A stretch of DNA of 64,000 nucleotides from an uncultured Candidatus Saccharibacteria bacterium (GCA_964365185.1 CAYIOP010000001.1:180579-244578); one strand, 5' to 3'. Numbered from the stretch's first letter, positions 9,444-40,027 are shown. Notes: generated by a model from the sequence alone, not told the origin. Made by a program: numbers and translations.

Positions 9444-12400
9444 ATGGGAAAATTTGTCCACTTACATACACATTCTCATTATTCCCTGCTCGATGGGCTC
9501 GCGAAAATTGATGACTTGATTTTACGCACTAAGGAATTAGGGATGGATTCTTTGGCGATTACGGACCACGGGGTTTTATACGGCGCAATTGAGTTTTACA
9601 AAAAAGCCAAGAAGGCCGGCATCAAGCCGATTTTAGGAGTGGAGGCGTATATCGCTCAAGGCAGTCGGCATAAAAAAGAGGCGGGAGAGAAATACTATCA
9701 TTTGATTTTACTTTGCGAGAATCTGACTGGTTGGAAAAATCTGGTGAAACTGATATCAATCGCGCATTTAGAGGGTTTTTATTATAAGCCGAGAATTGAT
9801 AAGGAACTTTTAAGAGAATATCACGAGGGGTTGATTGGCCTTTCAGCTTGTTTGACCGGCGAGGTAAATAAATTATTAGTCAATGATAAATTTGAAGAAG
9901 CCAAACAAGCGGCAAAAGAATACGAAGAAATTTTAGGCAAAGAAAATTTCTTTTTAGAAATTGGCGATCACCCGAATATTCCGGAAGCGACAAAACTCCG
10001 AGAACGAGTTATTAAACTTTCGAAGGAAGTGGAAATAGGAATGGTGGGCACGCAAGACATCCATTACGCGAAACCAGAGGATGCGGAATACCACGACATA
10101 CTAGTCGCGGTTCAGACCGGCAGCCGGCTGTCAGACGACGACCGATTAACGCTTAAGGCCGATGATTTTTCTATGACCTCGCCTGAGGTAATGATAGAGA
10201 AATTTAAAGATGTGCCGGAGGCGATTATAAATACCGTAAAAATCGCGGAGCGATGCCAGGTTGAGCTTGAGTTGGGAAAAATTATTCTGCCAAATTTTCC
10301 GAAACCGGACGGCAAAGCCGCGAATGAATATCTAGAAGAACTAATTCAAGAAAGAATTAACAAAAGATTCCCCGGAGAAAAATTAACTCAAGAAATAAGA
10401 GATCGACTTCAAATGGAACTGGGAGTAATCGAGAAAACCGGATTTGCGGATTACTTTTTGATTGTTCAGGACTTTATTCAATGGGCGAAAACGCATGGCA
10501 TTGCCGTTGGTCCGGGCCGGGGTTCGGCCGCCGGCAGTATTGTCTCGTTCATATTGGGCATTACGGATATTGACCCGATTGAATACGGACTGCTATTTGA
10601 AAGATTTTTAAACCCAGACAGAATTCAGATGCCGGATGTGGATGTTGATTTTGCTGACACCGGCCGCGATAGAGTTTTGGCTTATGTTAAAGAAAAATAC
10701 GGAGAAAATCGCGTGGCCCAGATTATTACTTTTGGAACAATGGCGGCCAGAGCCGGAGTGAGAGACGCGGGGCGAGCCATGGGCCTTTCATATAATTTCT
10801 GCGATCAGCTGGCAAAACTGATTCCTTTTAACGCCAAACTAGACGAGGCAATAGAGAAAGTGCCAGAGTTAAAAGAATTTTATGAGACCAATGAAGACGC
10901 CAAACGAGTGCTTGAAGCGGCCAAACACTTAGAAGGCGTGGCGAGGCACGCTTCGGTACATGCTTGCGGAATAGTCATTTCAAAAGAATCGCTAATGGAA
11001 TATTTGCCGCTTCAGCTGGCTCCGCAAGACAAAAACAATATTATTACACAATTTGAGATGCACGCGGTTGAAGACCTGGGACTTTTAAAAATAGATTTTT
11101 TGGGCCTTAAAAATTTAACTATTATCGAGGAAACAACAAAGTTAGTGAAAGAACGACAGGGAATAAATATAAAAATATCGGAGTTACCGCTGAATGACGA
11201 AAAGACATTTAAACTACTAAGAAGAGCGGATACCACGGGAGTTTTTCAATTGGAGGGCGGGGGCATGAGGCGATATTTAAAAGAACTGCAGCCATCGGAA
11301 CTTGAGGATATTATTGCCATGATTTCTCTTTACCGGCCGGGAACGCTCGACGCGGGAATGGTGCCGCATTATATTTCCCGCAAACTGGGCAGAGAGAAAG
11401 TGACCTATCTTCATCCCAAATTGGAGCCAATACTAAAAAAAACATACGGCATTATGGTTTACCAAGAGCAACTAATGGAGGTGGCGAGGGTGCTCGCGGG
11501 ATTTACTTTTTCAGAGGCCGATACCTTAAGAAAAGCGGTGGGGAAAAAAATAAAATCATTACTTAAAGAACAGGAGGAAAAACTTATCTCCGGAATGATT
11601 AAAAACGGAATTGACAATAATAAAGCCAAAGAAATTTGGCAGTGGTTTGAACCCTTTGCCAGGTACGGATTTAATCGCTCACACGCGGCGAGCTATGCGC
11701 TTATCGGATATCAAACAGCGTACTTGAAGGCCAACTTTCCTGAAGAATTTACGGCGAGCTTGTTAAATTCAGAATTAGACGATATTGATCGCATCGCATT
11801 TCTGGTTGATGATGCCAAAAAAGCCAATATCTTAATCTTGCCGCCGGATATTAATAAAAGCTTTGTAAATTTCACGCCGGAAGATGGAAAAATCAGATTT
11901 GGACTTTTAGCCATTAAAAATGTAGGTGAACAAATTGCCAATAATATCATCAAAGAGCGAATCCGGGGTGGCGACTTTCAGGATTTGAAGGATTTTTTGG
12001 GCAGAATTCAGCATAAGGACCTAAACAAAAAATCATTGGAGAGTTTAATTAAGGGAGGGGCGTTAGATAATTTAGGCATTGAAAGAAATCAACTAATTCA
12101 AAATATTGATGAAATTTTAAAATTTAGCGCGGTGACCAAAAGAGGTTTAGTTTCAAATCACAACTCTCTTTTTGGAGAAACGATGGTTGGTTTTAGCGCG
12201 TTGAAATTAAAAGAGGCGCCGCCAGCAACTCCAGAAGAAAGATTAATTTGGGAAAAAGAGCTTTTAGGACTATATCTTTCGAACCATCCACTTAAAAGAT
12301 TCGCGGATAAAATGAAGGCCTCACAAGCCAGGCCAATCAATGAAGTCAAGCTCATTAAAAACGAGAATCAGATTTTTCGAATCGCGGGCTTGCTTTCTAA

Positions 12401-33399: not shown

Positions 33400-33846
33400 T
33401 TACTGGCCAATATCCTCTACGAAAGCTTTGATGTGACCGTCAAAATCAAGCACCCACCCATCTCTAAATAGACCGTCCTCTGGTTTCGGATAAGCTAAGA
33501 TTGCATAAGCTCGATAACTCGTTTCATTTCCTTCGATGGAATATTGATACTTGGCGTCCGGCGGAATCAAGACGCCAATTTTAAGGAAAGCGCCAATGTT
33601 CTTTTTATCAGCGATTCTATCTTCGCTCTCAGGAATCCAGTAAGCGCCGGCAGGATTATTCTTCTTGAATTCTTCCTCAGCTAAGTATACTTGAGTTAGA
33701 ATTTTTTTGGCCTCCGCCTGGATTGTACGCTTCGGGTTATTAACAACCCTAGGAATTACCAGGGCCGCGAGAATACCAATAATGATTATAAAAATCAATA
33801 CATTGGAAACGTAAGGAGCCCTATGAATTTCGATTTCTGAAGACAC
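33400..33846 (-). CDS. Pilin/pseudopilin-like small secreted protein (GTG start)
   Basis: The N-terminal hydrophobic helix IFIIIIGILAALVIP is followed by a pilin-like segment (AEAKKILTQVYLAEEEF). An SD AGGAGG precedes the GTG. There is no canonical G|FTLIE cleavage motif. Confidence 0.4.
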   Translation of the reverse strand: MSSEIEIHRAPYVSNVLIFIIIIGILAALVIPRVVNNPKRTIQAEAKKILTQVYLAEEEFKKNNPAGAYWIPESEDRIADKKNIGAFLKIGVLIPPDAKYQYSIEGNETSYRAYAILAYPKPEDGLFRDGWVLDFDGHIKAFVEDIGQ

Positions 33847-34711: not shown

Positions 34712-34785
34712 GCGCCCATAGCTCAATTGGATAGAGTATCTGCCTTCGAAGCAGAGGGTTCCAGGTTCGAGTCCTGGTGGGCGCA
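34712..34785 (+). tRNA. tRNA-Arg (anticodon UCG)
   Basis: GCGCCCA acceptor, anticodon loop CT-TCG-AA, T-arm GGTTCGAGTCC. Confidence 0.8.
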
Positions 34786-34839
34786 CAAATGAAAATCTTT
34801 CCGCCATAAAGCTATAGATAGTATGTTATAATTAGTTTT

Positions 34840-35679
34840 ATGCTCAAAAAGATTCTCATTATATTTGGAATAGTAATAGTAATTTTTATAATTCGTTTCT
34901 TGATTTGGCAAAGCGGCCTGCTTATTAAAATAGCACCGACATCCGACATGGCTTCTGATGTTTCCGGATATTCTTCAAAAGTAAATACAGAAAATGTCAT
35001 ACAACAATTTTTTACCCTTAATGATGGCAGTTTTTTAATAACAAGATACGTGCATCAATATAAAATGGCAGAGGGTTTTCGAGCCTTTCCAGATGGTGGA
35101 ATTCCTTATGAACTTTTAAAAATGCACGATTTAATTAGAGTCTCAAATAAAGGAGAAATCTTGTGGCAGAAATTATTTATAGAAAATGAAGCTCCTAATT
35201 ATGACTATTCAGCTTTTTTAATAAAAAATTCTAAAAAAAGCAGAGAGGGATTTCCGAGCATTTTGAGCCTTCCGTACGCCAGCATTAATACAATTAGAGA
35301 ATGCTCACCTTCTATTATTCAACTCTCAAGAAGAAAAGAGCAAAAGATTCCGGGGCAGAGTGGATATTACGAAAAAGATTATGTATTTCTTGAATCCTTT
35401 GAACCTCAGAATGGAATTAATTTAAATATAGAAAATGGAGATATAAATTCAATTACAGATCCAAAAGATCTTTGCATAAAAGACATTCGAGAAGAAATAA
35501 CAGCTTTGAAAAGTTGTAGCCCAGAATTTAGTGACCTTAATGGAATTTCTTCTAGAAAATTTGGACTTTCCATCGCTGGTTATGACTTTAGAAGATATGG
35601 ACAATATTTGAATGAGTGTATATCCCCATTACTTAATGAAGTATCTTCACCTAGGAATATTACCTTTAGAGGAAAGTAA
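34840..35679 (+). CDS. Hypothetical membrane-anchored protein
   Basis: N-terminal TM helix. No recognisable domains. AT-rich. Confidence 0.4.
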   Translation: MLKKILIIFGIVIVIFIIRFLIWQSGLLIKIAPTSDMASDVSGYSSKVNTENVIQQFFTLNDGSFLITRYVHQYKMAEGFRAFPDGGIPYELLKMHDLIRVSNKGEILWQKLFIENEAPNYDYSAFLIKNSKKSREGFPSILSLPYASINTIRECSPSIIQLSRRKEQKIPGQSGYYEKDYVFLESFEPQNGINLNIENGDINSITDPKDLCIKDIREEITALKSCSPEFSDLNGISSRKFGLSIAGYDFRRYGQYLNECISPLLNEVSSPRNITFRGK

Positions 35680-35791
35680 TAAATTGATTTTACAGAGATC
35701 AAAAATAATCCTAATTCTCATATCTTCTAAGAAGTGCGGAATGGCTGAAATTCTTTCTGATTGAGTTCTCTAAAAAAGACCTAATAAGAAA

Positions 35792-37723
35792 CTACTTTAA
35801 AAAAATATTGACGAATGGATTTAGAATAATTCCTAAAAGAGAGGGGCTATCCAGACCGCCTTCGGTAGACGGGGGCAGAGGTATAGTTTGGAATTGGCCG
35901 TCATTGGGATAAGGAATTCCTTGTGGAGGCATGGGAAAACTGTTGGGGTCGAAATTATTTCTGTCGAAACCTGGCGGAGGAACAGATTTTTCTCCTGAAT
36001 TTTGAAGATGGGGCATTCCAGAAAATTCAGTAAAACATTTTCGAATAATTTCTTGGATTGGACCAGAGGGCTGATCACCACGGAGAAGTTTTTGAACCTC
36101 TTCTTCTTTTAAATTGCTCTTGAGACAAGCGGCCACTGGCTCGGGAAATATTCCAGTTCGGAGCATTGGCATATTTCTGCCCTGATTAGTCGGCGAATTT
36201 TGGAACATCTTTTCTTTTCTTTCTGGAGGCATAAAACCAGGACTAGATTCTCCGTAATTTCCACCTTCGTGGGGTCGAGGAGTAAACGATTCAAAACATG
36301 GCCTAATTTTGGATTCTATATCTAGTCCAGGCATCAATTCTCCGGACTTAATTTTTTCAAAATCAGCGCCTAAGTTATTACTGAAACATTCTTTAACTTC
36401 AGCCGGGGCGGTTTTAAGAAAGTCGCCAAAACCGGGGGGTGGACCGTCGAAATTCCTCTCGGAATTGTTTTGCCCTTGCCCGCCAAATTGAAAACGCGAG
36501 GCCTCAAAACAAACTCGGAAAGTATCACCCATCTCAGGTGTAAATTCTCCTGTTCCGGATTTGATTTTTTCAACATCAATCCCTTTTTCAGTTAGGCATG
36601 ACAAAACTTCCAGTGGCGCATCTTTAAACATTTCATGGGGTCTAAAACCGACACCGGATTTTTCAAAACAGGTCTTCACTTTCTCCCCTATTTCCTGGCC
36701 AGGAACGAGATTACCGCTTTCAATATTTTGAATGATATTAGAACCTAAATTTTCTTTAAGACAGGCGCGCACTTCTTCAGGCGCGTTCTTGAGGCCGGCG
36801 CGCATTCTTGAAAAACCCTCCTTGGTTTTTTGGATTTCTTCGGGTTTAATTAATCCATTTTCTTCGGCAAATTTAAAACAAGCTTGCTGATTAGCTGGAT
36901 TATTACAGTAGGTCTCGCAGGCCTGTTTACCAATACAACCGCCGGGGCCTTTGCCGCCGGTTTTTTTAATCCGGGTGGCTTCTTCTTGATTCATAAAACC
37001 AGCTTCTTCTGCAAAGGCAAGGCACGCTTCAAAATTATTTTGGTCACCGCAGAAAACATCACATTCTTTTTTTGACTTACAGCCGCCGGGGGTCTTGCCA
37101 GCTTTCATTAATTCCAGAACTTTTTTAGGCGGCACGCCATCTTTTTCACCCTTTATATCCAAACCGGCTTTTTCGGCAAAAGCGATGCATTCTTCGGCGT
37201 GATCAAAATTACCGCAGTAATTTTCACACGATTCTTTAGAGATACAGCCGCCAGGCATTTGGCCACCGGAACGAATAAACGTCTGAATTTTTTTGGCTTC
37301 TTTAAAATGGCTGTCGGTAATTTGGTTTTGTTCAGCCCAAGTGAGACAAACTTCCAAATTTTCCACCGAACTGCAAAACACTTTACAACTCTTCGGATCC
37401 GTGCAGCCGCCGGGACCGGCTTGAGTTTTCAAACTTTTGGAAAAGCGCCCGGCCCGAGCGGCCTCTGCTTCGTCCATTAAGCCGTTCTTTTTAGCAAAGA
37501 CAATGCAGGCCTCGATATTTTCTTTTTTATCACAAAAGTTTTTACACTCGGTTTTACTCGCGCAATTACCGAGCTCGGGAATTGGAAAAGTAATTTTACT
37601 TAAAATCGCCGATTCATTAATTGCATTAATATTATCTTCGGTTTGAGCTAAAGCAGAATAAAAAACAGAAAAGCCAATCAAGATAATTGAGATTGACAAC
37701 GAAACCCAGATAATTTTTTTCAT
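35792..37723 (-). CDS. Secreted Cys-rich modular repeat protein (5 x 4-Cys modules + 4 x 2-Cys modules)
   Basis: Signal peptide, then repeated PGGCxxxxxCxxFCxxxxNxExCxxFAxxxG units, then repeated APxEVxxC(L/F)...CFE units. 643 aa. Confidence 0.6.
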   Translation of the reverse strand: MKKIIWVSLSISIILIGFSVFYSALAQTEDNINAINESAILSKITFPIPELGNCASKTECKNFCDKKENIEACIVFAKKNGLMDEAEAARAGRFSKSLKTQAGPGGCTDPKSCKVFCSSVENLEVCLTWAEQNQITDSHFKEAKKIQTFIRSGGQMPGGCISKESCENYCGNFDHAEECIAFAEKAGLDIKGEKDGVPPKKVLELMKAGKTPGGCKSKKECDVFCGDQNNFEACLAFAEEAGFMNQEEATRIKKTGGKGPGGCIGKQACETYCNNPANQQACFKFAEENGLIKPEEIQKTKEGFSRMRAGLKNAPEEVRACLKENLGSNIIQNIESGNLVPGQEIGEKVKTCFEKSGVGFRPHEMFKDAPLEVLSCLTEKGIDVEKIKSGTGEFTPEMGDTFRVCFEASRFQFGGQGQNNSERNFDGPPPGFGDFLKTAPAEVKECFSNNLGADFEKIKSGELMPGLDIESKIRPCFESFTPRPHEGGNYGESSPGFMPPERKEKMFQNSPTNQGRNMPMLRTGIFPEPVAACLKSNLKEEEVQKLLRGDQPSGPIQEIIRKCFTEFSGMPHLQNSGEKSVPPPGFDRNNFDPNSFPMPPQGIPYPNDGQFQTIPLPPSTEGGLDSPSLLGIILNPFVNIFLK

Positions 37724-37734
37724 ATAATAAATAA

Positions 37735-37995
37735 TTAATCTTGGAAGGGATTTTGATAAGCGCCTTCCAGAGGATTTACGCTAGCCATATTGCCGGTTGC
37801 GGGAAGGTTTTCTCCTAAAGGGTTTTGGATTTTGGCCGAGATTTCACTGCCCAACCCGCCGGGTTGATTTGAGTTTTCAGTTTGGGCTTGAATTGGTTTT
37901 TCGGTGGTTATATTTTTATTGGAAATAAACCACCACAAAAAAATAGCGATTAAAGCGACCAGAAAAATAGAGACGACAATAACTGGTTTGTTCAT
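37735..37995 (-). CDS. Small membrane-anchored/secreted protein, co-oriented upstream partner of the Cys-rich protein
   Basis: 86 aa with an N-terminal TM helix. It lies 12 nt upstream of the 643-aa ORF. Confidence 0.4.
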   Translation of the reverse strand: MNKPVIVVSIFLVALIAIFLWWFISNKNITTEKPIQAQTENSNQPGGLGSEISAKIQNPLGENLPATGNMASVNPLEGAYQNPFQD

Positions 37996-38093
37996 AGTTT
38001 TTATTAATTTAATTTTACAGGATTTAAAAATCTAAGCATAAACTAAATTATCCCCAATTTAGAATTATCGCTTTATGGTATATAATATTTGGT

Positions 38094-38816
38094 ATGATTA
38101 AATATACTATGAAAAAGAAGATGGAAGCTAAAGAACTAAGGAAGCGGGGTATGAGCTATCGCGAGATTTCGAGTTATTTGGATATAGCTAAAAGCACAGC
38201 TAAACTCTGGTGTAAAGATGTAGAGTTGAATCAAGAGCAAAGAAAAATTTTATACAAAAAGCAAATAGAGCTAATGGCGAGAGGGCCGAATAGTAGTCGC
38301 GCAAGACGAAACAGGGAGATTGAAAAAATTCTTTCCAGCGCAGAAAAAGAGCTTAAATTACCGATTGATTCTGAAACTTACCGACTACTCGGAGCAATGA
38401 TATATTGGGGAGAAGGAGATAAAACACAGCATTTCGGTATTGCTAACTCAGATCCTTTTTTAATAAAATTCATGATTAAATGGTTAGAAGATATATTGGG
38501 TATTATGCCAAACCGCATAAAAGCTTATTTGAATATTCATTCTCAGCAGAATGATATAGAAATTAAAAAATTTTGGTCAGAATTAACTGAAATTCCCATT
38601 CAAAATTTTGGAAAGACTTTTATAAAACCGACAAATAAAAATTTTAAGAAAAATAATCTTTATTATGGAACGATTCGTATAATAATTTCGAAAGGAACTG
38701 ATTTACGCTATCGTGTTATGGGTTGGATTTCAGCTCTTCTCGCTAGTCAAAATCTTGAGGTTGAAAAAATTCAAAACAAGTGGCATAAATTAAGGGAAGA
38801 ATATAGCCGCCCATAG
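38094..38816 (+). CDS. HTH-domain protein with a LAGLIDADG-like motif (possible homing-endonuclease-like or DNA-binding mobile-element protein)
   Basis: N-terminal HTH (SYREISSYLDIAKSTAKLW). LLGAMIYWGEGDKT resembles a LAGLIDADG motif. A TATAAT lies 8 nt upstream of the ATG (leaderless). The stop codon lies inside tRNA-Lys. Confidence 0.4.
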   Translation: MIKYTMKKKMEAKELRKRGMSYREISSYLDIAKSTAKLWCKDVELNQEQRKILYKKQIELMARGPNSSRARRNREIEKILSSAEKELKLPIDSETYRLLGAMIYWGEGDKTQHFGIANSDPFLIKFMIKWLEDILGIMPNRIKAYLNIHSQQNDIEIKKFWSELTEIPIQNFGKTFIKPTNKNFKKNNLYYGTIRIIISKGTDLRYRVMGWISALLASQNLEVEKIQNKWHKLREEYSRP

Positions 38817-38880
38817 CTCAGTCTGGTAGAGCTGCTCGCTCTTAACGAGAAGGTCCCAGGTTCAAATCCTGGTGGGCGGA
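38807..38880 (+). tRNA. tRNA-Lys (anticodon CUU)
   Basis: CCGCCCA/TGGGCGG acceptor, GCTCAGTCTGGTAGAGC D-arm, anticodon loop CT-CTT-AA, T-arm GGTTCAAATCC. Confidence 0.75.
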
Positions 38881-39043
38881 CGATTAAAAAATCTTTGCTC
38901 CGTACTCGAGCTTAGATTTTTTTACCTGCCTTGCCAAAGATTCATCGAAGGCAGGAGTCCCGAGCGAGGTCGCCTTAGCGACTGACGAGGGGCTACCTAA
39001 TTATTCTGATTTCAAAAAATACCCATAAAGGTATAATTAGGGC

Positions 39044-40027
39044 ATGGATGTAAGTTGGATGTATGCCAAGCGAAGGGCGGCTCCCGAGGCGCCCAAAAAA
39101 TCTAAAACTTATCTTTATGTTTTGGTGGGCGTGATTTCCGTGTTTTTGGTCGGAGGAATAGGCGGGTATTTATTTTACGAATCAAAATCGCAAACAGCCC
39201 AAGAAATTGAAGACCCTAACAAAGAGTGCGAACGAATTTTAATGGCGGTTAAAAAAGATCAAACCAGCATCAGCATCTGCGTTAAAAGTGATGGCAGCTT
39301 GAGATTGCTCTGGGAAAAATTGCCAGTCGGAGCTAATAAAATTGATATTTATTTTAAGGATGATAACGGAGATCGAAAATTATGGACCACGGTTTTTGTA
39401 ACTTCGGAATCAGGATACCTAGATTTATCTAAAACCGACCAAGGCGGCGCGGGTTATGAATTTGAAATTTATGATGGTTCGGGAAAGATTTTAATGAAAA
39501 GCGAGGGGTCGAGTCCGGCCCCAAGCGCCAGTCCCCCACCCAATACCGGCTCTCCGCAAAATCCGCCGCCCTCAAATCAACCAAACGAAAATCCGCCGGC
39601 GCCGACTCCGCCAAACCAACCCCAGCCAAATCTGCCGCCAGATAGCGGAACTCCGCCTGCCAACCCAACGCCAACTTCTTCGCCTTCGACCGACACTTCA
39701 ACTCAAACATATTACACGCCAACCGGCGAGGTTTCGGGAACCAGCACTGTGCCCACGGAAAATTTTTGGGTTTTACATGTACACAACAAAATTGAAATCG
39801 GCTGGCAAAATATTCCTTCAAGCACCAACCAAATTATTATTTATCGCTCGAAAACCGAAACCGGCGGTTATCAAAAACTTTTAGAACAACAGAATCCCAA
39901 AACAACTTATGACTTTCTAAGAATTGACGACCATACGCTTCCCGAGGCCTATTACTACAAAATGGAAACCAAGATGAATTCGACGATTCTAGAAACCTAC
40001 GGACCGGAATTTCTTCCGAGTTTATAA
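39044..40027 (+). CDS. Membrane-anchored protein with Pro/Thr/Ser-rich linker (surface or secreted)
   Basis: N-terminal TM. A ~70-aa low-complexity P/N/T/S-rich tract is followed by a C-terminal globular domain. TATAAT lies 8 nt upstream (leaderless). Confidence 0.5.
   Translation: MDVSWMYAKRRAAPEAPKKSKTYLYVLVGVISVFLVGGIGGYLFYESKSQTAQEIEDPNKECERILMAVKKDQTSISICVKSDGSLRLLWEKLPVGANKIDIYFKDDNGDRKLWTTVFVTSESGYLDLSKTDQGGAGYEFEIYDGSGKILMKSEGSSPAPSASPPPNTGSPQNPPPSNQPNENPPAPTPPNQPQPNLPPDSGTPPANPTPTSSPSTDTSTQTYYTPTGEVSGTSTVPTENFWVLHVHNKIEIGWQNIPSSTNQIIIYRSKTETGGYQKLLEQQNPKTTYDFLRIDDHTLPEAYYYKMETKMNSTILETYGPEFLPSL

What the first reader, a model, noticed from the sequence alone, without database searches (positions are those of the whole stretch)
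34712..38880. tRNA-Arg to tRNA-Lys interval looks like an integrated accessory island: Cys-rich modular secreted proteins plus an HTH/LAGLIDADG-like ORF ending inside tRNA-Lys
Between two tRNAs lie four genes. The first is a hypothetical membrane protein (+). The second is a minus-strand pair of an 86-aa anchored protein and a 643-aa secreted protein. The 643-aa protein is built from two families of internal repeats: five copies of PGGC-x5-C-x2-FC-x4-N-x-E-x-C-x2-FA and four copies of AP-x-EV-x2-C ... CFE. The fourth gene is a 240-aa ORF with an N-terminal HTH and an LLGAMIYWGEGDKT (LAGLIDADG-like) motif. Its TATAAT sits 8 nt upstream (leaderless) and its stop codon lies 10 nt inside tRNA-Lys. 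A mobile-element-like gene abutting a tRNA, alongside novel extracellular Cys-repeat proteins, suggests horizontally acquired surface or host-interaction cargo.
Basis: partly seen in the sequence, partly recalled or inferred. Interest (0 to 1): 0.6.

Follow-up and report, generated by a model that had tools for sequence, protein, structure and literature searches.

The report
Homing-endonuclease-like gene beside tRNA-Lys
The tRNA-Arg to tRNA-Lys interval is not an acquired island, but its last gene belongs to a large, unannotated family of helix-turn-helix plus LAGLIDADG-fold proteins that sit directly in front of tRNA genes in ultra-small (CPR) bacteria and inside tRNA arrays of large phages, most likely as a selfish homing-endonuclease-type element.

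Summary
The "integrated island with horizontally acquired cargo" reading fails. Composition is ordinary. There is no integrase and no att repeat in the window. The 643-aa Cys-repeat protein belongs to a conserved Patescibacteria family (at least 785 homologues). A tRNA-Arg(TCG) close to tRNA-Lys(CTT) is a common layout in this phylum.

In 73 of 80 related genome loci the ORF ends within -78 to +27 nt of a same-strand tRNA-Lys(CTT). Distant relatives lie inside tRNA arrays on viral contigs. Occupancy is patchy: 9 of 43 loci that were selected only by their tRNA-Lys sequence. A paralogue shows a clean presence/absence difference in front of tRNA-Arg(TCG). Eight loci carry a partial 5' tRNA-Lys copy upstream of the gene.

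Best reading: a free-standing homing-endonuclease-like selfish gene of tRNA spacers, leaderless and co-transcribed with the tRNA. Nuclease activity and its target are inferred, not shown.

The parts
34712..34786 (+). tRNA-Arg(TCG). It is the usual upstream partner of the unit in relatives and the left edge of the interval.
   Evidence: ARAGORN; Rfam RF00005, 71 bits. tRNA-Arg(tcg) is present in 51 of 80 related loci, mostly on the same strand upstream of the D gene. In D-less loci it directly abuts tRNA-Lys(ctt).
34840..35679 (+). 279-aa ORF with an N-terminal hydrophobic segment. It is an ORFan and not part of the D unit.
   Evidence: ORF list. No Pfam, NCBIfam or PHROG family. The only hit among 5.8 billion proteins is itself.
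35792..37723 (-). 643-aa secreted all-alpha protein: signal peptide, five 4-Cys modules, four 2-Cys modules and a Pro-rich tail. It belongs to a conserved Patescibacteria family of unknown function. It is lineage-resident, not island cargo.
   Evidence: Repeats. At least 785 homologues of 560-1050 aa. 27 of 28 Cys invariant. AF2 mean pLDDT 76.8 with helical modules above 90. No PDB fold match. Homologues next to the D gene in only 3 of 80 loci.
37735..37995 (-). 86-aa ORF with an N-terminal transmembrane helix, just upstream of the 643-aa gene on the same strand.
   Evidence: ORF list. Only weak, sub-threshold family hits. No tblastn match in the 80 related loci.
38058..38086 (+). Promoter of the D gene: TTTAGA, 17 nt, TATAAT. 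The -10 element ends 7 nt before the ATG, which implies a leaderless or nearly leaderless mRNA.
   Evidence: Promoter scan and sequence. A -10-like hexamer ends 6-9 nt before the predicted ATG in 43 of 76 related loci, often as TGnTATAAT with a TTGAGT-like -35 element.
38094..38816 (+). D gene, 240 aa. It has an N-terminal three-helix HTH (about residues 6-40, nt 38109-38213), two long helices (47-86), and one LAGLIDADG-fold domain (about residues 93-218, nt 38370-38747). E107-G108 lie at the end of the first helix of that domain. The stop codon lies inside tRNA-Lys.
38807..38881 (+). tRNA-Lys(CTT). It is the constant partner of the D gene. Its positions U8-A9-G10 supply the TAG stop codon of D.
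   Evidence: ARAGORN and Rfam. A same-strand tRNA-Lys(ctt) begins within -78 to +27 nt of the D stop in 73 of 80 loci. In relatives the ORF stops at tRNA positions 8-10 or 36-38 when it reads into the tRNA.

Best explanation
The 240-aa gene (here called D) is a free-standing, homing-endonuclease-like selfish gene. It lives in the spacer immediately 5' of tRNA-Lys(CTT), within what is otherwise a simple tRNA-Arg(TCG)-tRNA-Lys(CTT) pair.

**Shown**
- D has an N-terminal HTH and a single LAGLIDADG-fold domain, with an invariant acidic residue (E107) where these enzymes carry their catalytic acid.
- Its family is large and unannotated.
- Family members sit between tRNA genes, or directly in front of one, in Patescibacteria and on large viral contigs.
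- The gene is present in only about a fifth to a quarter of lineages that carry the same tRNA-Lys allele.
- It carries its own promoter placed for a leaderless mRNA.
- It leaves essentially no spacer before the tRNA.

**Inferred**
- The protein dimerises, as single-domain LAGLIDADG enzymes do. It binds and cuts DNA in or next to a tRNA-Lys(CTT) gene that lacks the insert.
- Repair from a D-bearing copy then copies D into the spacer. The conserved tRNA genes on either side would serve as homology arms.
- The tRNA is transcribed from D's promoter or by read-through, and RNase P cleavage defines the 3' end of the mRNA. Where the stop codon lies in the tRNA, as in this window, processing and full-length translation compete. 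This would keep expression low.

**The rest of the interval**
The other three genes (279-aa ORFan, 643-aa Cys-repeat protein, 86-aa ORF) are ordinary lineage-specific or phylum-conserved genes that happen to lie between tRNA-Arg and D in this genome.
For: **Fold**
- AF2 pLDDT 88, with alpha-beta-beta-alpha-beta-(insert)-beta-alpha topology from residue 93.
- The motif G-x3-YW-x-EG-x-K is invariant in 45 homologues that were found without using it as a seed.

**Position**
- In 73 of 80 genome loci the ORF ends within -78 to +27 nt of a same-strand tRNA-Lys(ctt). Two more have the tRNA within 140 nt. Three have it divergent about 110 nt upstream.
- The upstream neighbour varies: Arg-tcg, Arg-tct, Arg-ccg, Leu-taa, Met-cat, Lys-ttt and Ser-tga.

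**Family-wide tRNA association**
- 16 relatives at 24-36% identity on IMG/VR contigs nearly all lie next to tRNA genes, mostly inside tRNA arrays. In L081, L083, L087, L093 and L094 the ORF ends within -15 to +13 nt of the next tRNA.

**Optional and mobile behaviour**
- In L004 a paralogue with its own promoter fills the His-Arg(tcg) spacer. That spacer is about 34 nt and empty in L002 and L003.
- Of 43 metagenome loci chosen only by a 29-nt tRNA-Lys pattern, 9 have D (8 of 33 non-redundant loci). In many of the rest tRNA-Arg(tcg) or tRNA-Leu(taa) directly abuts tRNA-Lys. Identical tRNA alleles occur with and without D.
- Truncated or frameshifted copies exist: L066, L073, L065 and L103/L141.
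- Pairwise identity of D is uncorrelated with that of the neighbouring RecG (rho = 0.12).
- A divergent subfamily occupies the same site in bins labelled Omnitrophota.

**Footprints**
- Eight loci carry an acceptor-specific partial copy of tRNA-Lys (starting at positions 1-10 and ending at positions 15-30) just upstream of D, z = 4-8.

**Precedent**
- T4 SegB is a free-standing endonuclease gene between tRNA genes. It recognises a tRNA T-arm motif and drives its own inheritance (PMC2330249).
Against: - No nuclease activity, target site or transfer event has been observed.
- tRNA-Lys alleles with and without D are identical, so it is unexplained how a D-bearing genome would escape cleavage of its own tRNA gene.
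- Pairs of loci with and without D that share a tRNA allele share no other flanking similarity. Patchiness could therefore reflect ancient insertion followed by many losses rather than ongoing homing.
- D clusters partly follow host taxonomy.
- Invariance of LYWAEGxK in the 96 fetched loci is partly circular, because that peptide was one of the search seeds.
- MAG binning errors could account for the non-CPR occurrences.
Confidence: 0.6

Rival explanations
1. D is a domesticated LAGLIDADG-fold DNA-binding protein, analogous to WhiA. It would act as a transcription factor, for example autoregulating the promoter that also drives tRNA-Lys(CTT), and would have been inherited vertically from an early Patescibacteria ancestor and lost many times. 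The tight linkage would persist because the tRNA has come to depend on D's promoter.
For: - D is strongly conserved, with 40 invariant columns at about 50% identity.
- D clusters partly follow taxonomy.
- There is no room for a separate tRNA promoter, and a conserved strong promoter lies in front of D.
- In the Berkelbacteria-like loci, D and the tRNA diverge from a spacer of about 110 nt, as expected for a shared regulatory region.
Against: - D is dispensable in about three quarters of lineages with the same tRNA allele.
- WhiA lacks the catalytic acidic residues (established knowledge of that family), whereas E107 is invariant here.
- The same family sits among many different tRNAs in viral contig tRNA arrays and in front of tRNA-Arg as a presence/absence polymorphism. 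A dedicated tRNA-Lys regulator would not explain this.
- Degenerate copies exist.
Confidence: 0.2
2. D acts on RNA. It would be a maturase-like or processing or stability factor for the precursor transcript of the adjacent tRNA, as some LAGLIDADG proteins assist RNA folding. Its mRNA is physically fused to its substrate.
For: - The ORF and tRNA must be co-transcribed, and in 25 of 75 loci the ORF reads into the tRNA.
- The family is always next to tRNA genes.
- A conserved, very basic loop is present (K174, K178, K185, K186, N187).
Against: - tRNA-Lys alleles are identical with and without D, so the tRNA does not need it.
- No intron or unusual structure is present in the tRNA.
- The HTH and the saddle-type fold are typical DNA binders.
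- The adjacent tRNA can be on the opposite strand, as in L059-L062, L085, L091 and L095.
Confidence: 0.08
3. The whole tRNA-Arg to tRNA-Lys interval would be a horizontally acquired island that integrated at a tRNA gene and brought the Cys-rich secreted proteins as host-interaction cargo.
For: - The interval is bounded by two tRNAs that share 13-nt 5' and 13-nt 3' ends.
- GC is slightly below the window mean (0.372 against 0.405).
- The 279-aa ORF is an ORFan.
Against: - Composition is within the normal spread; 12.5% of windows are as distant.
- There is no integrase or recombinase.
- The shared ends are simply the two tRNAs' own acceptor stems.
- The 643-aa protein is a widely conserved Patescibacteria family with invariant cysteines.
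- The flanking genes and the Arg/Lys tRNA pair are syntenic in relatives.
Confidence: 0.04

Closest known systems
Phage T4 SegB (free-standing GIY-YIG homing endonuclease in the T4 tRNA gene cluster; PMC2330249)
   Same: [quoted passage not shown] SegB recognises a conserved tRNA-gene motif and drives inheritance of itself and of neighbouring tRNA genes. This is the working model proposed here for D.
   Different: - The catalytic fold differs: GIY-YIG for SegB, LAGLIDADG-like for D.
- SegB is a phage gene. D is chromosomal in Patescibacteria, tied to one tRNA species (Lys-CTT), placed at zero distance 5' of it, and leaderless.
- Activity has been shown for SegB and not for D.
Single-motif (homodimeric) LAGLIDADG homing endonucleases such as I-CreI, I-CeuI, I-MsoI and I-Vdi141I
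   Different: - There is no detectable sequence-profile similarity.
- D is not encoded in an intron or intein.
- D has an extra N-terminal HTH plus two long helices.
- D has an inserted helix and a long basic loop between strands 3 and 4.
- The motif reads YWAEG rather than LAGLIDADG.
WhiA (DUF199), a domesticated LAGLIDADG transcription factor of Gram-positive bacteria
   Different: - WhiA has two degenerate LAGLIDADG domains and a C-terminal HTH. D has one domain and an N-terminal HTH.
- D gets no hit to the WhiA Pfam models.
- WhiA is near-universal in its lineages, whereas D is patchy.
- WhiA lacks the catalytic acids, whereas D keeps E107.
LAGLIDADG endonuclease genes in rRNA insertion sequences and group I introns of CPR bacteria (PMC11270868; PMC13011429)
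   Same: Both occur in the same host phylum, involve the same broad enzyme class, and are associated with highly conserved RNA genes.
   Different: Those genes are intron- or insertion-encoded, lie inside rRNA or tRNA genes, and match Pfam LAGLIDADG models. D is outside the tRNA, intron-free, and unrecognised by those models. The tRNA-intron survey does not mention tRNA-Lys or this family.

Membership tests
LAGLIDADG homing endonucleases | alpha-beta-beta-alpha-beta-beta-alpha core fold | tested here: met
LAGLIDADG homing endonucleases | Signature helix ending in a conserved acidic residue plus Gly (the metal-binding catalytic acid) | tested here: met
   G100-x3-Y104-W105-x-E107-G108-x-K110 is invariant in 45 homologues. 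E107-G108 close helix 93-107 in the model. Only the position was tested, not the chemistry.
LAGLIDADG homing endonucleases | Match to a curated sequence model (Pfam LAGLIDADG_1, _2, _3 or _WhiA) or to solved members by profile | tested here: not met
   There is no such Pfam or NCBIfam hit at E <= 1 for D or at E <= 0.01 for 10 distant relatives. The profile against PDB sequences matched only the HTH. hhalign against I-CreI gave probability 0.2%.
LAGLIDADG homing endonucleases | Site-specific double-strand cleavage of a long DNA target | not testable with these tools
   This needs purified protein and substrates carrying D-less tRNA-Arg/tRNA-Lys loci.
Homing (selfish) endonuclease genes in general | Presence/absence polymorphism at one defined site among related genomes, with degenerate copies | tested here: met
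   A paralogue is present in L004 and absent from L002 and L003. D is present in 9 of 43 loci matched on tRNA-Lys, and the same tRNA alleles occur with and without it. Truncated or frameshifted copies are L066, L073, L065 and L103/L141. The pairs compared are not close relatives, so loss-only histories are not excluded.
WhiA family | Two tandem degenerate LAGLIDADG domains followed by a C-terminal HTH | tested here: not met
   D has one domain and an N-terminal HTH and gets no WhiA Pfam hit.
tRNA-integrated genomic island | Integrase or recombinase gene next to the tRNA | tested here: not met
   None of the four ORFs matches a recombinase. Only weak HTH similarity to transposase N-termini was seen.
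tRNA-integrated genomic island | Direct repeat of part of the tRNA (att) at the far end of the island | tested here: not met
   In the window the only 11-mers or longer that are shared are the two tRNAs' own ends. The region upstream of D has no tRNA-Lys remnant (z = -0.9). In 8 relatives a 5' tRNA-Lys fragment brackets D alone.
tRNA-integrated genomic island | Composition different from the flanks | tested here: not met
   The tetranucleotide distance is 0.202 against 0.171 +/- 0.033, and 12.5% of windows are as far. GC is 0.372 against 0.405.
SegB-type (GIY-YIG) tRNA-cluster endonucleases | GIY-YIG catalytic domain | tested here: not met
   No GIY-YIG hit in Pfam or PHROGs. The fold is LAGLIDADG-like. 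Only the genomic niche is shared.

The most novel reading that the evidence does not exclude
D-family proteins could be a tRNA-gene-specific homing system that has persisted across Patescibacteria and spread to other phyla and to large phages. Each lineage would recognise the DNA of one particular tRNA gene, whose stem-loops are natural pseudo-palindromes suited to a homodimeric enzyme. The flanking conserved tRNA genes would act as portable homology arms, which would allow transfer between genomes that share almost no other sequence. Insertion would then also rewire tRNA expression, with the tRNA driven by the element's leaderless promoter and the mRNA 3' end made by RNase P. That would give a selfish element that shapes tRNA operon architecture, and a reservoir of thousands of uncharacterised meganuclease specificities.
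Probability: 0.25. Interest if true: 0.8.

Novelty: new variant of a known kind. Interest (0 to 1): 0.6.

Why it matters
- **An unannotated family gets a fold and a context.** The family has at least 3,241 clusters at 50% identity with E <= 1e-10, and no Pfam, NCBIfam or PHROG model covers its core domain. It is currently labelled "hypothetical" or "helix-turn-helix transcriptional regulator".
- **A selfish element in very small genomes.** If the proteins are active endonucleases, CPR bacteria, whose genomes are among the smallest known, carry a selfish element in their tRNA operons.
- **tRNA gene neighbourhoods.** It would explain part of the variability around tRNA genes in CPR bacteria and inside phage tRNA arrays.
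- **New enzymes.** It would offer many new long-target nucleases with tRNA-gene specificities.
- **Annotation.** The ORF truly runs into the tRNA, and its start is M1 with a leaderless promoter, not the database's M10.
- **The 643-aa protein.** The negative result matters too. This protein should be studied as a conserved Patescibacteria envelope or secreted family, not as strain-specific cargo.

Tried and rejected
- **Sequence-level links to LAGLIDADG proteins** all came back negative: phmmer and profile searches against PDB sequences, hhalign against I-CreI, and Pfam, NCBIfam and PHROGs on D and on 10 distant relatives.
- **An intron or other structured RNA around the tRNAs**: Rfam found only the two tRNAs.
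- **Partial tRNA repeats in the window**: none beyond the two tRNAs' own shared ends.
- **Partial tRNA copies upstream of the viral relatives and of the L004 paralogue**: none that are not annotated tRNAs.
- **Precise insertion boundaries** from tRNA-identical pairs with and without D (L117 against L102 and L115): the flanks are too diverged, and only the tRNAs align.
- **RecG against D pairwise identity** as a test of vertical descent: no correlation, but the identity range is narrow and the pairs are not independent, so the result is weak.
- **Structure search for the 643-aa protein**: no PDB match.
- **Literature searches** for this family or for LAGLIDADG genes in tRNA arrays found nothing specific. 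One search failed on a term that was too short.
- **Functional link between D and the Cys-rich protein**: rejected, because homologues of the latter are near D in only 3 of 80 loci.

Full report

Yes. ARAGORN finds tRNA-Arg(tcg) at 34712-34786 and tRNA-Lys(ctt) at 38807-38881, both on the + strand. Rfam confirms both and finds no other RNA family in 33.5-40.5 kb.

The four ORFs are exactly as described.
- **643-aa protein.** It has five C-x5-C-x3-C-x8-C modules and three strict plus one degenerate AP-x-EV...C...CFE modules.
- **240-aa ORF, here called D.** It ends with a TAG that is tRNA positions 8-10, a 10-nt overlap. A TTTAGA-17-TATAAT promoter ends 7 nt before its ATG.

**2. Is the interval an island?**

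No.
- **Composition.** GC is 0.372 against 0.405 for the window. The tetranucleotide distance is 0.202 against 0.171 +/- 0.033 for all 4.1-kb windows, and 12.5% of windows are at least as distant.
- **Recombinase and repeats.** There is no recombinase. The only tRNA-derived repeats are the acceptor ends that the two tRNAs share.
- **The 643-aa protein.** It has at least 785 homologues of similar length, and all that carry a name are from Patescibacteria. 27 of its 28 cysteines are invariant in 36 homologues. Its model is a string of small, confidently predicted helical modules with no PDB counterpart. It is a conserved secreted or envelope family of unknown function, not strain cargo. Homologues sit near D in only 3 of 80 loci.
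- **The 279-aa ORF.** It is an ORFan.
- **Synteny.** RecG (downstream in the window) and the M50 peptidase (upstream) recur near the D-tRNA-Lys unit in relatives.
- **Source.** The window comes from a Hainich groundwater Patescibacteria assembly.

**3. What is D?**

- **Homologues.** D has more than 200 homologues at 48-69% identity and about 240 aa, from many Patescibacteria classes. They carry only N-terminal HTH Pfam hits. Forty columns are invariant, including G100, Y104, W105, E107, G108, K110 and N118-S119-D120.
- **Model.** AlphaFold2 gives pLDDT 88. The model has a three-helix HTH (6-40), two long helices, then alpha-beta-beta-alpha-beta-(helix plus basic loop)-beta-alpha.
- **Catalytic position.** E107-G108 close the first helix, where LAGLIDADG enzymes carry their catalytic acid.
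- **No sequence-level link.** Sequence methods do not see the relationship, and Foldseek missed it. The assignment is therefore at the level of fold plus motif.
- **Family size.** A full HMMER scan of 1.84 billion cluster representatives finds 5,967, 3,241 and 400 clusters at E <= 1e-3, 1e-10 and 1e-30. Most are 220-240 aa and match over the full length. Some carry extra HTH modules.

**4. The association with tRNA genes**

- **Genome loci.** Among 80 loci fetched by protein similarity, the ORF ends within -78 to +27 nt of a same-strand tRNA-Lys(CTT) in 73. Two more have the tRNA within 140 nt. In three Berkelbacteria-like loci the tRNA is divergent about 110 nt upstream.
- **Stops supplied by the tRNA.** When the ORF lacks its own stop it uses U8-A9-G10 (TAG) or U36-A37-A38 (TAA) of the tRNA. 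This explains the recurrent -10 and -38 overlaps.
- **Neighbours.** The upstream neighbour varies, but tRNA-Arg(TCG) is nearby in 51 loci.
- **Viral contigs.** Sixteen relatives at 24-36% identity lie on IMG/VR contigs, many of 150-500 kb. Nearly all lie next to tRNA genes, mostly inside tRNA arrays, and several again abut the next tRNA.
- **A paralogue.** In L004 a paralogue sits 5 nt in front of tRNA-Arg(TCG).

**5. Is D optional?**

I scanned metagenome contigs for a 29-nt stretch of the tRNA-Lys itself, which is independent of D.
- D is directly upstream in 9 of 43 loci, or 8 of 33 after removing duplicates.
- In many of the others tRNA-Arg(TCG) or tRNA-Leu(TAA) directly abuts tRNA-Lys. 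In some, ordinary genes lie between.
- Identical tRNA alleles occur with and without D. However, those pairs share no other flank similarity.
- L004 against L002 and L003 shows a clean insertion/absence of the paralogue with its own promoter in a roughly 34-nt His-Arg spacer.
- Truncated or frameshifted copies exist.
- D identity does not track RecG identity (weak evidence). D clusters only partly follow taxonomy: Yanofskybacteria fall in three clusters and Liptonbacteria in two.
- A divergent subfamily occupies the same site in bins labelled Omnitrophota. Related copies sit by tRNA-Lys or tRNA-Arg in a Saganbacteria bin and a deltaproteobacterial bin. Binning error is a caveat here.

**6. Footprints and expression**

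- **Footprints.** In eight loci an unannotated fragment matches the cognate tRNA-Lys. It starts at positions 1-10, ends at positions 15-30, and includes its lineage-specific acceptor strand. It lies just upstream of D's start or promoter (z = 4-8), and three more loci show weaker traces. D alone is thus bracketed by a direct repeat of the 5' part of the tRNA.
- **Expression.** A -10-like hexamer, often TGnTATAAT with a TTGAGT-like -35 element, ends 6-9 nt before the predicted ATG in 43 of 76 loci. This supports a leaderless mRNA and M1 as the start in the window.

**7. Mechanism**

Shown:
- the fold and the motif;
- the genomic niche;
- patchy occupancy;
- the gene's own promoter;
- zero spacer before the tRNA;
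- the footprints.

Inferred:
- D is a homodimeric endonuclease that cuts DNA in or next to tRNA-Lys(CTT) genes lacking the insert.
- D is then copied in by repair, with the conserved tRNA genes serving as homology.
- The tRNA is co-transcribed, and RNase P sets the mRNA 3' end. Where the stop codon lies in the tRNA, processing and translation compete.

The closest functional precedent is T4 SegB, a GIY-YIG endonuclease gene between tRNA genes that recognises a T-arm motif.

Unexplained:
- how D-bearing genomes would spare their own, identical tRNA gene;
- which event creates the 5' tRNA duplication.

**8. Rivals**

- **An RNA-directed role, 0.08.** This is disfavoured because the tRNA is identical without D and can lie on the opposite strand.
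- **The island model, 0.04.** This is contradicted by the evidence in section 2.

**9. Verdict**

- The notable result is a large unannotated family of HTH plus LAGLIDADG-fold proteins resident in tRNA spacers.
- I class it as a new variant of a known kind (free-standing homing endonuclease genes in tRNA clusters).
- Interest is 0.6.

Noticed in passing
window 34712-34786 and 38807-38881: The window's tRNA-Arg(TCG) and tRNA-Lys(CTT) share identical 13-nt 5' ends (CGCCCATAGCTCA) and 13-nt 3' ends (TCCTGGTGGGCG). They therefore have the same acceptor stem, with a C1-G72 first pair. This is not general in relatives; in L117, for example, the stems differ.
   Followed up: partly
window 34840-35679: The 279-aa ORF (GC about 0.34, N-terminal hydrophobic segment) has no homologue in 5.8 billion proteins except its own copies from the same organism. 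It is either a fast-evolving lineage-specific gene or not a real gene.
   Followed up: partly
L121 about 1379-1560 and L132 about 12053-12230 (tRNA-oriented strand used): A complete tRNA-Lys(ctt) is followed immediately by a second copy whose 3' two-thirds is a perfect tRNA-Lys but whose 5' part is replaced by unrelated sequence (ATAAAAGGTACGGGGTGAATACCGC...). It may be a partial tandem duplication or an unusual or interrupted tRNA gene.
   Followed up: no
L124, L136 and L139, about 40-70 nt upstream of tRNA-Lys (tRNA-oriented strand): In these D-less loci a hairpin, ccgcccatatgttcatatgggcgg, contains the first 9 nt of the downstream tRNA-Lys (CCGCCCATA) and its complement. It could be a terminator of the upstream gene or a footprint of a past event at the tRNA 5' end.
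   Followed up: no
family-wide, for example window 38814-38816, L035 2839-2841 and L034 5635-5637: tRNA-Lys(CTT) supplies stop codons in two of the three frames (U8-A9-G10 gives TAG, U36-A37-A38 gives TAA). About a third of D genes have lost their own stop and use these. In the third frame the ORF runs through the whole tRNA (L034, 78-nt overlap).
   Followed up: yes
P0272 (532 aa), P0280 (560 aa), P0294 (576 aa), P0351 (380 aa): Some distant family members are about twice as long, with two or three matched stretches and several tandem HTH modules. They may be fused or tandem forms, reminiscent of the homodimer-to-monomer transition of LAGLIDADG enzymes. The domain layout was not examined.
   Followed up: partly
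window 38094-38120: The public gene call for this protein (P0001, 231 aa) starts at M10. The conserved promoter position and the N-terminal alignment with homologues favour M1 (240 aa).
   Followed up: yes
window 39044-40027: The next gene downstream of tRNA-Lys encodes a 327-aa protein with an N-terminal transmembrane segment and a long Pro/Thr/Ser/Asn-rich low-complexity stretch (about residues 155-230). It matches no family. It is another probable surface protein.
   Followed up: no
window 33400-33846: A 148-aa ORF on the - strand has an N-terminal hydrophobic helix resembling a type IV pilin or pseudopilin leader region (VLIFIIIIGILAALVIPRV). It has no Pfam hit.
   Followed up: no
L005, L007, L008 and L016, upstream of the D start: In this clade the partial tRNA-Lys copy runs up to about position 30-39 and ends only about 10-20 nt before the ATG. 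No TATAAT-type promoter is seen, so D may be transcribed there from further upstream, through the tRNA fragment.
   Followed up: partly
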